A DNA stretch of 64,000 nt. Origin: Alphaproteobacteria bacterium (GTDB lineage Bacteria > Pseudomonadota > Alphaproteobacteria > SP197). The stretch is taken from contig OZ219746.1 in the NCBI GenBank assembly GCA_964291265.2, positions 160,001 to 224,000 on the forward strand, given 5' to 3'. The position numbers and the translations under genes are program-made. This document shows, piece by piece, positions 29,364 through 35,893 of the stretch (the stretch's first letter is position 1; each line of letters begins with the position of its first letter). Below the pieces are notes generated by a model that ran no database searches, was not told where the DNA came from, and saw nothing but the letters and a program-made list of their open reading frames with translations.

Positions 29364-29435
29364 GGTCCCGGCCGACAGGTTTACCCCTCATGCTATCACG
29401 GCCCCGTGCCCTGTCATCCACCGCCCGACCCAGGA

Positions 29436-30540
29436 CAAGGCCTTCCTACGCTGGAATTCGCTTGATTTCTCTTGACGTCAGGCGTTCGTATGTTGCACGC
29501 GCGCGCGGACATTTCCCGCTGGCCATCCCGCTTGGGATGTGCGACGGCCCGGTCATGTTGACGATTCGCAAGCGCATGAAAGCTGTTCCGATCCATCAGG
29601 AAGCACCTGAGGGTTTTTCCCTGTCTGAGGTTGAGGTTCGCCTGGTGAGGCCGGAGGAGCGTCCGCTGTGGGACGCGTTGATGAACGAGTACCACTATCT
29701 CGGCTTCCTTCGCCTGGCGGGTCTGAGGTCTGCGCTACGTTGCGACCTTCAGGGGCCATTGGCTGGGTCTGGCGGCGTGGCAGAACGGCGCCTTCAAGTG
29801 CGCTCCCCGCGACCGGTGGACCGGCTGGAAGCCTTAAGCAGCAGTTCCAGCGGCTCTCGATGGTGGCCAACAACACGCGGTTCCTGATCCTCTCCAAGCC
29901 CGGGGTGTTTGCGAACCTTGCTTCCTGTTTCCTTGCGTGCATGACGCGCCGGCTCTGTGACGACTGGCTGAAGGTGCACGGCCACGGGGTGCTGCTGGCG
30001 GAGACGTTGAAGCGATCCGGAGATCTTTGCCGGCACGATGTTGAAGGCTGCGGGCTGGACGTGTCTGGGTGAGACCAAGGGGTTTGCCCGCTCCAACGGG
30101 CGTTACACCGATCCTCACGGCAAGCCCAAGGATATCTACGTTACGGCACTGAGGCGCGATGCCCGGGCGCTGCTGTCGAGCCCGCTGCCGCTTCCCCCCG
30201 ACGTGGCGCCGCCCTCATGCCCCGAACTGGCGCCCCGGGACCCCAAGGTGCTGCGCTCGCTCTACGCCGAGCTCGCGGCCATTCCCGACTTCCGCCGGGC
30301 GCAGGGAAGGAAGCATACCGTGGCATCGGTGCTCACCGTGCACGTGCTCGCCGAGATCGCCAACATGAAGGGCTGTGTCGCCGCCGCGCAGTTCGCGCGG
30401 TCCCTGTCCCAGGAGGAGTTGGAGGCCATCGGCGCGTGGCTTAACCCGAAGACGGGGCTTCGCGAGCCCGTCTCCAAGTCCACCATCCACCGGGTTATCC
30501 AGTCGATCGACCCCGAGGCTCTGGAGGATGTGCTCGCAAG
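29436..30540 (+). mobile_element. Truncated, frameshifted DUF4338-ISAs1 family transposase element (left end plus N-terminal and middle part)
   Basis: Left IR CAAGGCCTTCCTACGCT; HHYLG..WLGLAAW..NNTRFLIL split over frames; H-repeat-associated IPDFRRAQGRKH; near-identical to 33361-33853. Confidence 0.85.
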
Positions 30541-30712
30541 GACCATGCATGGCGAGCGGCCCATGCGGTTCGAGCGACTGTGTTTCCGTGCCCTGTCGGA
30601 GGGAGCGATTTCTGAGGCCAAGGCTGCTGAACCGCTCGGCCACTCGGTTCACGAGCTCAACCGCCGGATGCATGAACCTCCGAGCCTAGAGCCGGAACTT
30701 GCAGGGGCGTGA
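30541..30712 (+). pseudogene. C-terminal fragment of an XRE-ImmA/IrrE family regulator
   Basis: ERPMRFERLCFRALSEGAISEAKAAE.LG tail fused in frame to the transposase relic; adjacent PIN-like gene. Confidence 0.6.
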
Positions 30713-31019
30713 GTTTCGTGAAGATCTTGGTGTCCGACAACTCTGTCCTGATTGTCGACTTGTCGAAGCCACTTTCGGCCTACCGTTCGAGTTCACTGTT
30801 CCCGACTTGCTTTGCGAGCGTGAGCTCAAGGAACACGGCCGGCCGAACTTTGTCAGGCTGGGTCTTCGCGTCGAGGAACTGGATGGCGATGGAATTTTGC
30901 TTGCGCTGGGTTACCGCCGAAAGCGGAGATCGCTGTCTCTTCCGGACAGCTTTGCCCTTGCTCTCGTGAAAACAAATGCGCTTAACCCGGATTGCGGTTG
31001 GACGGCAGGCTTTAGTTGA
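30709..31019 (+). pseudogene. Frameshifted PIN-like toxin gene
   Basis: MSFVKILVSDNSVLI in one frame continues as PFEFTVPDLL.ERE...LSLPDSFALALVK in another; GTGA overlap with the upstream tail. Confidence 0.6.
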
Positions 31020-31492
31020 CAGAGTGGAGCAGCCGGTTGACCTTCGGCGCCGAGGGCGGCGGCAAGGCGGTACGCTCAGCGCAGCGAACGTCCCGGGTCT
31101 CCGTGCGTCGCCGACTCAAGATGGAACTCCAGCACCCTCACCAGGTCCGGGTCCTCCTCGGACATGCGCTTGCGGCCGCCGCCGGGACGGCGGGTCCGCC
31201 TGGCCGGTACCGGCAACGTCGCCGTCGCGCCCTTGTCCAGTTCACTCAAACCGGAACGGACCGTGTTGCGGGACCTCCCCGTCGCCTCGACGACCCGGGC
31301 GATGCCGCCGCAGCCGAGCGCCCGCGCCGCGGCCGCCACCCACAGGCACCGCGAGCGCCCGTCCAGAACAGCCTCCAGCGCCACGTACTTGGATCCAATC
31401 GTCTCCGACCCCCATCCATGGTGTACGCATGGCACCGCAGCACAATATAGTCAAACTAGTTTGGTAAGTAACCTTAGCTTGAAAGCAGCCTA
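31016..31492 (-). mobile_element. ISAzo13-family transposase, N-terminal relic
   Basis: LWVAAAARALGCGGIARVVEATGRSRNTVRSGL...RRPGGGRKR...HGDP; premature stop. Confidence 0.8.
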
Positions 31493-31538
31493 GGTCCATG
31501 CCTAAATACAGATACGTAAACCCCGCTGAGGATCAATC

Positions 31539-31910
31539 GTGAACAGCCTAGGACACAAAAACTTGCAGCGCGTCGTCGTCGAATACGAAAACCTGGACAT
31601 CCCTCCGGCCTACGTGGAATCAGTGCAAGGAGCAGCAAGCCCCAACGGTGTGCTCCATGTCAGCTTCTTTTCGGAACGCATCAAGGGCCTTGAGAGCATC
31701 CCGGGCACTGTGACAGTGCAAGTGGATGAATCAGGAATGACCAGTCTCTCATCTATGGTTGCCGACCCCTATGGGATGGACAGAGAGGAGTTTAGGGTCA
31801 TTCGCCGAGTGGAGGCCAACCTAATCTTCACAGCAAACGCGATAGAGAGGCTGATCCCTTGGCTCCAGCATCAGCTCGATGCAATGCGCAAGAAGGAGGC
31901 CTCGAGTTGA
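31539..31910 (+). CDS. Hypothetical protein, gene A of the low-GC triplet (DUF3467-like, putative chaperone/adaptor)
   Basis: GAGGA SD then GTG; Y.ESVQGAASPNGVLHVSFFSER...RVEANLIF...WL. Confidence 0.75.
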   Translation: MNSLGHKNLQRVVVEYENLDIPPAYVESVQGAASPNGVLHVSFFSERIKGLESIPGTVTVQVDESGMTSLSSMVADPYGMDREEFRVIRRVEANLIFTANAIERLIPWLQHQLDAMRKKEASS

Positions 31911-32542
31911 GCACTTCGTTTCTTTCCATAGTCGTTCCACAGCTGAGTGAACAGCAAATTGCTGAGTTCTCCGGCGACATAAACGTCTTGGCTCTAACGT
32001 TTCACGTTCCTCCTCTTATGGCGGACCCCGCCATTCAAGAAGAAACAGGGGATGTTTTGTGCTACTGGATCGGTTGGCCCAAGATGAATGCACCGGCACC
32101 ACCTGTTGCAGCTCAACACCATCCTCAGACGCATGACGTTGCCTATTTCATTTATCAGGGACGTAACTATCAGCAGTGCCAAAACACGATCAACGAACTC
32201 CGCGAGACTGCTAAAGAACGCAACTGGGATGGCGAGGACAGCAAACCGATTTCCGATGAGGTGATTTTACTGGCCTTGAGAGTTGCTGCCAACTTACCTG
32301 GAGATCTTCCCGTTCCCGAAATCTACCCCGATCCGGAGGGGCGCATTGAGTTCGACTGGGCACTGGAAAATGGCACTATATTCACGCTAACCGTGGGTCC
32401 GAAAGGAGATGCGGCAATGTCCGCTAAGCGCACGAACGGTGGCTTTCTTCGCGGCTGGGCCAAGAATGACGACGACGATGATACGATCCCTGATTTTGTA
32501 GCCTTTAGCTTGAACTGGTTGAAAAGAATGGCGGTGAAATGA
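31907..32542 (+). CDS. Hypothetical protein, gene B of the triplet (NWDG-motif protein, putative antitoxin)
   Basis: AAGGAGG at 31893-31899, TTG start overlapping the gene A stop; NWDGEDSKPIS...PEIYPDPEGRIEFDW. Confidence 0.75.
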   Translation: MSTSFLSIVVPQLSEQQIAEFSGDINVLALTFHVPPLMADPAIQEETGDVLCYWIGWPKMNAPAPPVAAQHHPQTHDVAYFIYQGRNYQQCQNTINELRETAKERNWDGEDSKPISDEVILLALRVAANLPGDLPVPEIYPDPEGRIEFDWALENGTIFTLTVGPKGDAAMSAKRTNGGFLRGWAKNDDDDDTIPDFVAFSLNWLKRMAVK

Positions 32543-32931
32543 CGGATAATTCAGGGAAGCTATTTGCCCGATATTGTTTTGAAAAATCAAAAATAAAGAA
32601 GAGTGGTTTGCACCATAGGCTGTTTCACCCAAAAGACGATAGATTGTCGGTCCAACTCATTGACGATATTCAAACTCAACAAATTGAGATTATCGGTCGT
32701 GAGATTGGAATAGAACAAGGTCGAAATTTATACGGATGGGGTCAGGTCAGCAGGTCAGTTTTCGAGAAGGAAGGACTTCGTGTGTGCGTGGACAATGATC
32801 CAAGGCCAGGCCACACCAATATACGGGGGTGGCCTAAAGATCCTGATGTTCTGCTTGATGTAAGACAAAAGCTGGCCGTTGCCGCAAATGTTGTGGGCGC
32901 TGTTTACGTCTCATGCTGTACAACTGCCTAG
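32539..32931 (+). CDS. Hypothetical protein, gene C of the triplet (putative ART/RES-like toxin)
   Basis: ATGA overlap; LFARY...F.P...LSV...GHTNIRGWP pattern. Confidence 0.7.
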   Translation: MTDNSGKLFARYCFEKSKIKKSGLHHRLFHPKDDRLSVQLIDDIQTQQIEIIGREIGIEQGRNLYGWGQVSRSVFEKEGLRVCVDNDPRPGHTNIRGWPKDPDVLLDVRQKLAVAANVVGAVYVSCCTTA

Positions 32932-33477
32932 GCAAGAGTGCCGCTCATCCGCGATGCCGGCTTCCCAGGTCGGAGATCCGCAAGCGGCGTCTCGCCTATT
33001 CCGGTTGCTCAACCGGTCACGGCAGTCCATCGCTGATGTCAAGTCATGCTACCGTCGCAATCGTTGTCGTCTGGTTCGTGTGTATGGGATACAAAGGGTT
33101 GCATGGTGTTTCGGGCGTGGCGCTGCTTGCCGCCTCATCGGTTTGCAGTGACATGTCTCTGGTCCCTGCGACTCCCCTTGTTGAATGTGGCGCGAGTGCC
33201 CTTTCGGTCACCCGTGAGCGAGAAACTTGCGCAAGCCGGATTTCGGCACTCCTTGCGTGGCAGGCGAGGTTCGTCAGGGCCCCGGTGCGCTGCGGCCGGC
33301 CGAAGTCCGAAGTGGCGAAAGTTCAGACTGCACTCCGACTTGTTTCTGACGTCCCTGCAGCAAGGCCTTCCCACGCTGGAATTCGCTTGATTTCACTTGA
33401 CGTCAGGCGTTCGTATGTTGCACGCGCGCGGACATTTTCCGCTGGCCATCCCGCTTGGGATGTGCGACGGTCCGGTC

Positions 33478-33876
33478 ATGTTGTCGATTCGCAAGCGCAT
33501 GGAAGCTGTCCCGATCCATCAGGAAGCACCTGAGGGTTTTTCCCTGTCTGAGGTTGAGGTTCGCCTGACGAGGCCGGAGGAGCGTCCGCTGTGGGACGCG
33601 CTGATGAACGAGCACCACTATCTCGGCTTCCGTCGCCTGGCGGGTCGCGGTCTGCGCTACCTTGCGACCTTCAGGGGCCATTGGCTGGGGCTGGCGGCGT
33701 GGCAGAACGGCGCCTTCAAGTGCGCTCCCCGCGACCAGTGGACCGGCTGGAAGCCGGAGCAGCAGTTCCAGCGGCTCTCGATGGTAGCCAACAACACGCG
33801 GTTCTTGCTCCTCTCCAAGCCCGGGGTGTTTGCGAACCTTGCTTCCTGTTTCCGTAACTACTCACTCCCCTACTGA
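33478..33876 (+). pseudogene. Truncated DUF4338 N-terminal part of the transposase
   Basis: HHYLGFRRLAGRGLRY...NNTRFLLL; homology to the first copy ends at 33853. Confidence 0.8.
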
Positions 33877-34196
33877 TGACGAATGGTTTTTCCTGACGGG
33901 TTCGGATCCGGCATTTTCTCTTGCCGCCTTCACTGGCTCGCTGCCGATGATCGGATGTGCGTGTTCCGACTGACAAGAAGCGGATCGATCTTCGGCTTCA
34001 GCTCCACGTTCCGGCCTTATGGGGAGGGGGCTGCGACGTGATCCGGCACCCCGCGCCGAGGTTGCGTGTCAACCGTTCTGTCCGGTGGAGCGGGTTCCGT
34101 TGGCTGCCTTTCCAATCCTCTGGAGATATGCGCTTGACATTGTAGGAGGGGCGCTCTACATGCAGGCCATCGGGGCGGATTGCGTCGGAGATATTG

Positions 34197-35420
34197 ATGG
34201 CGGCATGGTATGGATCGAAGGCGACGACGGGTCTGAGCCAGGCGATCGTCGCGGCCATGCCGCCGCATGACGTGTACATCGAGGCGTTCCTTGGGGGCGG
34301 CGCGATCATGAAGCGCAAGCCTCCGGCGCTACGCAGCATCGGCATTGACCTCAACCGCCGGGCGATCGACAGCTTCCGCTGTGACTATCCGGTGGAGCTT
34401 CACCAAGGCTGCGCCCTGCGTTTTCTCGAGACCTTCGCCTTCCAGGGCCGCGAGCTGGTCTACTGCGACCCGCCTTACGTGCAGTCGACGCGCCGGTCGC
34501 AGCGCCGCTACCGCTTCGACTGCACGGACGATGACCATGTTGCGCTCCTCGACATCCTGACGTCGCTGCCCTGCCAGGTGATGATCTCCGGCTATCCCTC
34601 GCGGCTCTACGACACGCACCTCGCCGGCTGGCGCTCGGCCGAGGTCCAGGTCAACAACCAGGCCTGCGTTGTCACCCTCGACGCGCTGCACACGACACGC
34701 CATACCGCGAAGCTGATCACACAACGCGCGGATTACGTCTTCGTCGTCAAGGGCAACGCTCCGGAGACCTTCGCCATCCTCGACAGCATCAATTGGCAAA
34801 AGGACGCCACCGGCCACTTCACGGAGCCGTTCGACAAGGCGCACGGTCGACTGGAGCAGCGTTCGATCAGCGTCCTCGTCCCGTTGGACGGTCTGATCAA
34901 CTATCCGGGCGTCCGTCAGGTCGCCCGCATCACCCGCTATCGGGAGCCGTGGAAGAAAGGCTCCGGCGATGCCGGGAAGGAAGGCTCCGGCGATGCCGGG
35001 AAGGAAGGCCCCGGCGATGCCGGGAAGGAAGGCTCCGGCGATGCCGGGAAGAAAGGCCCCGGCGATGCCGGGAAGAAAGGCCCCGGCGATGCCGGGAAGC
35101 AAGAAGAGAAGGATTACACGGAAACCGATTACATCATCACCTCTCTCGATACGGGGGCCACGTCGCCGGAAGAGTTGCTGCGACTGAACCGCCGCCACTG
35201 GGCCGTGGAAAATCTGAACCATCGACAAAGGGATTGCGTCTTCGGCGAAGACGCCTGCCTGACCCGCACCGACAACGGCCCGGCGAACCGGGCCAGCCTC
35301 AACAACATCGCGCTCGCGGTGATCTTCGCCAACCGCCGCGAGGCCGAAAGCCTCGCCGAAACCCGGCGCCGCCTACAACTGGACCGTCGCGAGGCCATCA
35401 ACGCCCTGACCCGGCCCTGA
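34197..35420 (+). CDS. Chimeric ORF: Dam/D12-class adenine methyltransferase N-terminal part fused to the ISAs1 DDE transposase C-terminal part
   Basis: YGSK, EAFLGGGA (motif I), YCDPPY (motif IV); then VTLDALHT, VKGN, HGRLEQR, HWAVEN, D..FGED; GGAG SD. Confidence 0.8.
   Translation: MAAWYGSKATTGLSQAIVAAMPPHDVYIEAFLGGGAIMKRKPPALRSIGIDLNRRAIDSFRCDYPVELHQGCALRFLETFAFQGRELVYCDPPYVQSTRRSQRRYRFDCTDDDHVALLDILTSLPCQVMISGYPSRLYDTHLAGWRSAEVQVNNQACVVTLDALHTTRHTAKLITQRADYVFVVKGNAPETFAILDSINWQKDATGHFTEPFDKAHGRLEQRSISVLVPLDGLINYPGVRQVARITRYREPWKKGSGDAGKEGSGDAGKEGPGDAGKEGSGDAGKKGPGDAGKKGPGDAGKQEEKDYTETDYIITSLDTGATSPEELLRLNRRHWAVENLNHRQRDCVFGEDACLTRTDNGPANRASLNNIALAVIFANRREAESLAETRRRLQLDRREAINALTRP
34953..35096 (+). 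repeat. 6 x 24-bp in-frame tandem repeat (K[K/E]G[S/P]GDAG)
   Basis: AAG(A/G)AAGGC(T/C)CCGGCGATGCCGGG repeated six times. Confidence 0.97.
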
Positions 35421-35893
35421 GACGCCTTGAGCGTCCGGGGACCCCGGAACGCTGCTAGAACATCAAGAACCAAGCATCCGGGCCGAAAACGCTGCCGGTG
35501 TCGCCATGCGGACGGCACTGAAGCCACGGAATCCGTCCAGGACATCCCGATTCGGCCTCGATTCGTCGGCCTCGCGAAAGATCAGATGGCCGATTCGGGC
35601 GCGATTCATCGGCTTCCCGAAAAATCAGCCGTAGCGTAGGAAAGTCCTGTCCCTGCAGCCTTTCGCCCTGATGGTCCCGGCCTCTTCCCTGAGTATCGAG
35701 ACTGCGGTGGCTGAAGGCGCGAGAAAACAGGACGCAAATTCGACTGCAGGCCGGCAAGGTCCGTGACGAAGCCATGCAGGTCGACCGCAACGGTTGCCAG
35801 GTCGACCAGGGGAGCCGGCCCGATCATCGGATGGCGTGGGCCTGAAGAGGAGCAAGGCCTTCGCATGCGCTGTCTCGAATCGGTTTCGGCTGT

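What the first reader, a model, noticed from the sequence alone, without database searches (positions are those of the whole stretch)
31539..32931. Intact low-GC, translationally coupled three-gene cassette: candidate new chaperone-antitoxin-toxin defence system
Seen: three uninterrupted ORFs (123, 211 and 130 aa) with TTGA and ATGA stop/start overlaps and a perfect AAGGAGG SD before gene B. They are much more AT-rich than the backbone and stay intact among decayed IS and TA relics. Inference: gene C has an R...F.P...LSV...H.NI.GW pattern resembling ADP-ribosyltransferase/RES-like toxins. Gene B has a compact NWDG...P.P.G.I.F.W domain preceded by a ~85-aa N-terminal extension. Gene A resembles DUF3467-type small beta proteins. 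By analogy to toxin-antitoxin-chaperone systems such as CmdTAC (ART toxin, SecB-like chaperone; established), this could be a reversed-order tripartite anti-phage module with a non-SecB adaptor, in which the gene B extension acts as the sensing or addiction element.
Basis: partly seen in the sequence, partly recalled or inferred. Interest (0 to 1): 0.8.

Follow-up and report, generated by a model that had tools for sequence, protein, structure and literature searches.

The report
Three-gene toxin module, swappable first gene
These three coupled genes are a real, recently inserted module whose last gene is predicted to fold like an NAD-using ADP-ribosyltransferase; it likely works as a toxin, an antitoxin and an exchangeable helper protein, probably against phages, though none of these roles has been tested.

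Summary
In detail: three intact, overlapping, low-GC ORFs. Gene C folds confidently (pLDDT 93) into the ADP-ribosyltransferase (ART) fold, nearest to Tpt1/KptA and Tse2, with a conserved R11-S37-H92 set instead of R-S-E or H-Y-E. B and C form a widespread pair: a B-family gene lies directly upstream in 29 of 30 C loci. Both are distant relatives of PADLOC's untested candidate PDC-M32. The first gene is interchangeable: TIGR04255 (12 loci), A family (5), an unnamed 240-aa gene (3), true DUF3467 (2), a fusion to B (PDC-M32A, 2) or other small genes (2). The A family sits with two distant B-C subfamilies, which points to module swapping. In this genome the cassette is a strain-specific insertion that splits the PIN gene of an older toxin-antitoxin pair, so its intactness may reflect recency, not selection. 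It is not CmdTAC: gene order, catalytic residues and degron position differ. Toxicity, B-C or A-B binding, a chaperone role for A and phage defence are all inferred; A's DUF3467 kinship is only a lead. Verdict: new variant of a known kind, interest 0.6.

The parts
31539..31910 (+). Gene A, 123 aa; small protein with three core strands, an inserted hairpin and a long C-terminal helix; exchangeable first-slot gene, proposed adaptor or sensor
   Evidence: 17 proteins, self included; pLDDT 65; COMM domains Z 4.6-5.0; DUF3467 cluster at 0.88, lead only
31528..31532 (+). Ribosome-binding-site-like GAGGA, 6 nt before the GTG of A
   Evidence: sequence
31893..31899 (+). AAGGAGG, 7 nt before the TTG of B, inside the end of A
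   Evidence: sequence
31907..32542 (+). Gene B, 211 aa; about 89-aa variable N-terminal extension plus conserved NWDG core; proposed antitoxin; core related to the C-terminal domain of PADLOC PDC-M32A
   Evidence: (E 1.8e-6, residues 93-158)
32539..32931 (+). Gene C, 130 aa; ART-fold protein with conserved R11, S37, H92; proposed NAD-using toxin; family related to PADLOC PDC-M32B
30992..31477 (-). Truncated insertion-sequence end that came in with the cassette (ISAzo13-like; family name recalled)
   Evidence: 74% to a longer copy on C2; inside the skipped stretch
30545..30712 (+). 3' remnant of an XRE/peptidase-type antitoxin gene, cut by the upstream IS
   Evidence: 59% to residues 307-362 of WP_220664807.1
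30709..30983 (+). 5' part of a PIN-domain toxin gene, frameshifted, broken off at the left junction of the insertion
32928..33002 (+). 3' part of the same PIN gene, resuming at the stop codon of C (right junction)
   Evidence: (residues 133-161)
29433..30537 (+). Truncated copy of a multi-copy IS (DDE_Tnp_1-associated; ISAs1-like, name recalled), left flank
33361..35652 (+). Second copy of the same IS in the same direction, interrupted at 33854-34676 by another repeated element carrying a DNA adenine methylase fragment; right flank

Best explanation
The three genes are one translationally coupled, horizontally moved module in which C is predicted to be an NAD-using ADP-ribosyltransferase-fold toxin, B likely binds and silences it, and A likely acts as an exchangeable adaptor that keeps B stable until a trigger, probably phage infection, would release C. 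Shown: coupling, conserved order, ART fold by model, conserved R-S-H residues, the fixed B-C pair, swapping of the first gene, the variable B extension, recent insertion. Inferred: C transfers ADP-ribose to a nucleic acid or nucleotide-phosphate target, or destroys NAD, and so arrests the cell; A (a probable dimer) holds B's N-terminal extension as SecB-like chaperones hold the addiction tail in TAC systems; a phage protein displaces A, B is lost, and the infected cell stops growing before phage matures. My odds for the steps: C toxin with B antitoxin 0.7; anti-phage role 0.55; A acting on B as chaperone or sensor 0.4.
For: ART fold: ranks 1-37 of the structure search are ART-superfamily entries by title and my knowledge; best KptA 9ld3 Z 7.9, rmsd 3.1, 90 aligned; Tse2 5ako Z 5.8, rmsd 3.0, 99 aligned; model pLDDT 93. 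R11 123, S37 132, H92 133 of 134 sequences, invariant in 15 of 15 across both subfamilies; they lie on strands 1, 2 and 5, the ART active-site positions. B-family gene directly upstream in 29 of 30 C loci. First slot holds unrelated genes of four or more kinds. A-type cassettes need at least 2 label changes on the C tree, 0 of 200 bootstrap trees allow 1; L012 and L014 share 68% in A but 23% in B. B extension 5-49% identical to six close homologues against 55-80% in the core. Patchy spread: A absent from 22 of 22 same-genus genomes. Relatives inside or beside type I restriction genes (L010/L025, L006) and a TIR-type gene near L011. PDC candidates were picked for being embedded in defence systems.
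Against: No experiment. Every structural Z for C is under 8 and Foldseek gives no E below 0.001. The ART catalytic glutamate is replaced by histidine, and the best matches (Tpt1/KptA) are RNA-processing enzymes, not toxins. A's model is weak (pLDDT 65, 17 sequences) and its best matches are COMM and PUR/PC4 domains at Z 5 or less, which also fit a nucleic-acid binder. B's extension is no more disorder-prone than its core by composition (0.08 against 0.09) and B does not end in the LAA degron of CmdA. No defence genes were seen within about 5 kb in the window. Only 2 of 8 widened related loci had a strong PADLOC hit among the ORFs I sent, both to generic helicase-type models; no enrichment control was run. 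No relative of C was found in phage, plasmid or viral-contig sets with the single protein.
Confidence: 0.5

Rival explanations
1. A selfish addiction module: C is a toxin and B an antitoxin, but the unit only secures its own upkeep or that of the mobile DNA that carries it, and does not sense phage.
For: It arrived with an IS fragment, sits between two copies of another IS and replaced part of an older TA pair. Most widened related loci show no clear defence island.
Against: Repeated swapping of a third gene and a fast-changing B extension fit a conflict with outside partners; relatives are embedded in type I restriction operons. No match on 72,556 plasmids with the single protein.
Confidence: 0.2
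2. A is a nucleic-acid-binding or scaffold protein of PUR/PC4/COMM-like fold that regulates the operon or senses phage DNA or RNA, not a chaperone of B.
For: The best structural matches of A are COMM domains (Z 4.6-5.0), then PUR-alpha and PC4 (Z 2.9-3.7). DUF3467 genes in 30 other loci lie mostly beside non-defence genes.
Against: The matches are weak and the model poor. A is acidic in make-up rather than basic. The slot is also filled by TIGR04255 and other unrelated genes, always with a B that keeps an N-terminal extension.
Confidence: 0.15
3. C is not a suicide toxin but a Tpt1- or Arr-like modifying enzyme that repairs or marks RNA ends or a small molecule, with B as its required partner subunit.
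For: Top three structural matches are Tpt1/KptA NAD-binding lobes (Z 5.9-7.9); C lacks the catalytic glutamate; C also lacks Tpt1's RNA-binding lobe, which B's folded core could supply.
Against: Tpt1 uses H-H-hydrophobic, C has R-S-H. Sporadic spread, low sequence conservation (mean column identity 20%) and partner swapping are unlike a housekeeping enzyme.
Confidence: 0.12
4. A chance cluster of three unrelated foreign genes caught in an IS graveyard.
For: The window copy is a recent insertion in decayed surroundings; L015 holds a broken A with no B or C.
Against: Same order with overlaps or gaps of 11 nt or less at most junctions in four other genomes; B upstream of C in 29 of 30 loci.
Confidence: 0.02

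Closest known systems
PDC-M32 (PADLOC phage defence candidate, genes M32A and M32B; Payne et al., bioRxiv 10.1101/2024.01.29.577857)
   Same: B's core matches the C-terminal part of PDC-M32A (E 1.8e-6); 14 of 134 C-family members match PDC-M32B (best E 5e-7); a full PDC-M32 pair in a type I restriction operon was found by both my B and my C search (L010/L025).
   Different: PDC-M32A is a 375-aa protein with a 260-aa N-terminal part; here B is 211 aa and a separate gene A precedes it. C itself does not match PDC-M32B. PDC-M32 is unvalidated, and I saw no mechanism for it in the passages read.
CmdTAC / PD-T4-9 (Vassallo et al. 2024, PMC11618068; Mets et al., bioRxiv 10.1101/2024.02.24.581848)
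   Same: Three genes, an ART-fold effector, a partner with a variable tail, a small third protein.
   Different: CmdTAC runs toxin-antitoxin-chaperone, has an H-Y-[E,D,Q] ART, a SecB-like tetramer, and a mostly unstructured antitoxin with a C-terminal addiction tail ending in LAA. Here the order is reversed, the residues are R-S-H, B has a conserved folded-looking core with the variable part at the N-terminus, and A has a different strand-helix layout.
Tse2 of Pseudomonas aeruginosa (PDB 5ako)
   Same: Small ART-fold antibacterial protein blocked by a bound immunity protein; Z 5.8, rmsd 3.0 over 99 residues, 13% identity. I recall an Arg-Ser-His active site for Tse2; no call confirms this.
   Different: Tse2 is a secreted type VI effector; no secretion genes were seen beside C or its relatives, and no sequence match to Tse2 was found.
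Tpt1/KptA RNA 2'-phosphotransferase, NAD-binding lobe
   Same: Best structural match (Z 7.9, rmsd 3.1, 90 residues).
   Different: H-H-hydrophobic site and an extra RNA-binding lobe; housekeeping spread.
TIGR04255 family and DUF3467 (PF11950)
   Same: Both fill the first slot before B-C in related loci (12 and 2 loci).
   Different: Neither has a described function in my searches; A matches neither by profile.

Membership tests
ART superfamily (gene C) | Split six-strand beta core | tested here: met
   Model pLDDT 93 with six strands; ranks 1-37 are ART-superfamily entries, best Z 7.9, rmsd 3.1, 90 aligned. Each Z is middling; the agreement of the list carries the claim.
ART superfamily (gene C) | Conserved polar residues on strands 1, 2 and 5 | tested here: met
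   R11, S37, H92
ART superfamily (gene C) | Canonical triad R-S-E, H-Y-[EDQ] or H-H-h | tested here: not met
   R-S-H; His in 133 of 134 at the strand-5 position; clade definitions
ART superfamily (gene C) | NAD binding and turnover | not testable with these tools
   needs an assay
CmdTAC / TAC systems | Gene order toxin, antitoxin, chaperone | tested here: not met
   A-B-C puts the ART gene last
CmdTAC / TAC systems | SecB-like chaperone | tested here: inconclusive
   A's model is of low confidence; its best matches are COMM and PUR-like domains at Z 5 or less; no Pfam or NCBIfam match
CmdTAC / TAC systems | CmdT-type H-Y-[E,D,Q] ART | tested here: not met
   R-S-H
CmdTAC / TAC systems | C-terminal disordered addiction element with a ClpXP tag | tested here: not met
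   B's conserved core is C-terminal and ends MAVK; 2 of 28 B proteins end in LAA; the variable part is N-terminal
CmdTAC / TAC systems | Antitoxin needs the chaperone; phage protein triggers release | not testable with these tools
   needs experiments
PADLOC PDC-M32 | Full-length PDC-M32A (about 375 aa) | tested here: not met
   B matches only profile positions 260-324
PADLOC PDC-M32 | PDC-M32B match for the second gene | tested here: inconclusive
   C itself has no match; 14 of 134 relatives do
DUF3467 (gene A) | Pfam PF11950 match or significant profile match | tested here: not met
   No match for A or 8 of 8 relatives tested; HHalign probability 1-2%, no better than a reversed control. Language-model neighbour at 0.88 is a lead.
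Type II toxin-antitoxin pair (B-C) | Fixed coupled pair, partner gene upstream of the toxin | tested here: met
   29 of 30 loci
Type II toxin-antitoxin pair (B-C) | Direct binding, toxicity and rescue | not tested

The most novel reading that the evidence does not exclude
B-C is the core of a widespread, undescribed class of reverse-order tripartite anti-phage systems that need no SecB: unrelated first-slot proteins (the A family, DUF3467, TIGR04255 and others) act as plug-in chaperone-sensors that grip the variable N-terminal tail of one conserved antitoxin domain, and the effector is an ART with R-S-H chemistry. This would give a function to two families of unknown function and to PDC-M32 at once.
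Probability: 0.3. Interest if true: 0.8.

Novelty: new variant of a known kind. Interest (0 to 1): 0.6.

Why it matters
All TAC systems in the papers I read use a SecB-like chaperone as the phage sensor. If A, DUF3467 and TIGR04255 can each take that place before the same antitoxin-toxin core, chaperone-style sensing arose more than once and the sensor is a swappable part, which natural swaps here make directly testable. C would also add an ART with a histidine where the catalytic glutamate usually sits, so its target and chemistry are open. C-family genes occur in about 2-3% of sampled genomes (10 of 401 and 13 of 401, own genome included) yet carry no Pfam or NCBIfam name.

Tried and rejected
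Pfam and NCBIfam gave no useful match for A, B or C; weak NCBIfam rows (E 0.01-0.07) were set aside as chance. Sequence search of solved structures with the C and B profiles found nothing significant. Foldseek on A against PDB and viral models gave no E below 0.001; SecB was not among the 50 rows of the wide search, which does not exclude it. A against DUF3467 and against TIGR04255 by HHalign: not significant. L016/L017 (one phage contig) match A only through a short motif in a 734-aa protein and were dropped. L007 (B-like gene, downstream ORF not matched by either C profile) and L008 (PDC-M32A-like gene, no C seen in the stretch held) were left out of the 30 C loci. The idea that B loses its extension when the first gene is missing could not be tested: 2 of the 3 partner-less loci have broken B genes. 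No relative of C in 72,556 plasmids, 50,697 phages or viral contigs with the single protein; these searches see close relatives only. No sigma-70-type promoter or terminator on the coding strand. No RNA holder listed. The DruA Pfam matches at 29668-30072 and 33397-33876 belong to the repeated IS, not to a Druantia system. An integron-like reading of the right junction was dropped: the flank is the tail of a PIN gene. The idea that C's last codons were borrowed from the PIN gene was dropped because three homologues share the same Cys-Cys ending. Look-ups of earlier scan notes found nothing on this module.

Full report
Observation. The three ORFs, both 4-nt overlaps, the AAGGAGG site and the low GC are as described. 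GC of 0.504 over 1393 bases is matched by only 14 of 3463 genome windows (mean 0.647, sd 0.031). Each gene is single-copy in the genome. Pfam and NCBIfam name none of them.

Gene C. One search found 201 relatives at E up to 0.001 among 50%-identity representatives; I aligned C with 133 of the 150 listed, leaving out fragments and odd lengths. The model is confident (pLDDT 93). In the wide structure search ranks 1-37 are all NAD-using ART-superfamily proteins by entry title and my knowledge: KptA/Tpt1 (Z 7.9, 6.6, 5.9), Tse2 (5.8), AvrPphF (5.5), then Tne2, Scabin, DarT, RES, Arr, MbcT and others. No Z reaches 8 and Foldseek gives no E below 0.001, so the claim rests on the agreement of the list. 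R11, S37 and H92 are kept in 123, 132 and 133 of 134 sequences and are the only invariant residues in a 15-sequence alignment that spans both subfamilies. They lie on strands 1, 2 and 5, where ART active-site residues sit (passage). So C reads R-S-H, which is none of the three standard clades. That Tse2 uses Arg-Ser-His is recalled, not from a call.

Gene B. Six close homologues keep 55-80% identity over residues 90-211 but 5-49% over the extension. The extension is not more disorder-prone by composition. The core matches the end of PADLOC PDC-M32A. A second subfamily that lacks the WDG letters is linked to it by profile comparison (probability 93%, E 2.6e-7; reversed control 0.1%), as are the two C subfamilies (99%, E 2e-17).

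Gene A. Seventeen proteins, self included. The model is weak (pLDDT 65): three core strands, an inserted hairpin, one long helix. Its six best matches are COMM domains (Z 4.6-5.0), then PUR/PC4; these folds form dimers (my knowledge). It is not a DUF3467 member by Pfam or HHalign, although a language-model search lists a DUF3467-named cluster at 0.88.

Co-occurrence. Of 5 other genome loci found with the A alignment, 4 run A-B-C (L011-L014) and 1 is a broken A alone (L015). L014's C is frameshifted, and L013's B is only a weak profile match (E 0.037). Three contig lengths (3400, 9053, 195292) recur among the A and B database hits, 9053 also for C, an indirect sign of more cassettes. Searches of 401 phylum, 401 class and 46 order genomes with C alignments hit 10, 13 and 4 genomes (the sets overlap). 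Merged with the A loci this gives 30 distinct C loci. A B-family gene lies directly upstream in 29; some of these were in the alignment the profile was built from, others were confirmed when left out. The first slot holds TIGR04255 in 12 (all over the curated cut-off), the A family in 5, an unnamed gene of about 240 aa in 3, DUF3467 over cut-off in 2, other small genes of 138-142 aa in 2, and a PDC-M32A match in 2; 3 have no first gene and 1 is a lone C fragment. On a tree of 26 C proteins, built before L085-L088 were found and including the doubtful L007, A-type cassettes fall in two groups (at least 2 changes forced by well-supported branches). A stays 41-49% identical to the window's while B and C fall to 19-25% and 22-37%. 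The simplest reading is that the first gene is exchanged between B-C pairs.

Setting. A was not found in 150 relatives, 22 of them of the same genus. A contig from run X2 joins 30983 to 32928 with 133 other bases between. The two flanks are the front and back of one PIN-domain toxin gene that follows an XRE-type gene remnant, and genome G409 holds the two halves 127 bases apart. So 30984-32927, an IS fragment plus A-B-C, replaced the middle of an older toxin gene in this strain. The block lies between two same-direction copies of a multi-copy IS. Its intactness may therefore reflect recent arrival. Evidence for a defence setting is mixed: relatives lie inside or next to type I restriction genes (L010/L025, L006) and near a TIR-type gene (L011), but only 2 of 8 widened loci had a strong PADLOC hit among the ORFs I sent (79 proteins in all, chosen from a longer list), and I ran no control.

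Mechanism. Best reading (0.5): C is an NAD-using toxin, B its antitoxin, A an adaptor that steadies B through the variable extension and is displaced on infection. The steps after fold and gene context are inference by analogy with TAC systems. Rivals: plain addiction module (0.2), A as nucleic-acid binder (0.15), non-toxic modifying enzyme (0.12), chance cluster (0.02).

Comparison. It may work like a TAC system but is not a CmdTAC member: order, triad and addiction-tail position were tested and differ; SecB likeness is inconclusive. It is a distant relative, not a member, of PDC-M32. Full-text searches for TIGR04255, DUF3467, PDC-M32 and PF11950 returned 2 papers: one was read in passages and only lists PDC-M32 hits, the other was seen as a listing on an unrelated subject. 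Searches for related terms showed no description of this module in their listings. The library lacks most subscription journals.

Papers seen. PMC11618068: parts 1-2 of 12. bioRxiv 2024.02.24.581848: part 1 of 11. Passages only: PMC12429752, bioRxiv 2024.01.29.577857 (53), PMC13392464, PMC13069673, PMC9503650, bioRxiv 2020.07.21.169896 (85), PMC9846239, PMC6099711, 10.64898/2026.10.19.760177 (127), bioRxiv 2025.01.08.631726 (128), PMC8120803. I read no supplements; Tables S3-8 of the PDC preprint may already annotate PDC-M32, and candidate lists in the supplements of the large screens may hold relatives.

Verdict. A real, widespread, unnamed module with an ART-fold effector of unusual residue set and an exchangeable first gene; function untested. 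New variant of a known kind; interest 0.6.

Noticed in passing
L014:7086-8803 (minus strand): A second TIGR04255 gene (over cut-off) followed, after a gap, by an unnamed 203-aa ORF, facing the A-B-C cassette. TIGR04255 may head modules with other effectors too.
   Followed up: partly
L036:2592-3329, L038:2564-3274, L087:2461-3186, L007:356-1084: Unnamed genes of 236-245 aa fill the first slot; no Pfam or NCBIfam match. They may be remote TIGR04255 relatives.
   Followed up: partly
window 29433-35652: Two same-direction copies of a multi-copy IS enclose the cassette like a composite transposon; the left copy is cut at 30537, the right carries six 24-nt tandem repeats in its transposase (34927-35118).
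   Followed up: partly
window 33854-34676: A repeated element of about 820 bases, with many copies in the genome, carrying a D12-class adenine methylase fragment, inserted in the right-hand IS.
   Followed up: no
window 33141-33210: A 70-base element with at least 9 diverged copies elsewhere in the genome.
   Followed up: no
G000:C1:156714-158275 (just outside the window): A second XRE-PIN pair, apparently full length, about 32 kb from the broken one.
   Followed up: no
L011:1621-4348: A TIR-type gene matching PDC-S65 in two pieces and a gene resembling the C-terminal part of DarG lie just upstream of A-B-C.
   Followed up: partly
G409:C2:55900-57830 and G405:C13:21955-22403: The same XRE-PIN pair is broken independently in two other genomes of the genus (an IS and a 4-base loss in one, a truncation in the other).
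   Followed up: partly
window 32914-32919: C ends with a Cys-Cys pair shared by three homologues; role unknown.
   Followed up: no
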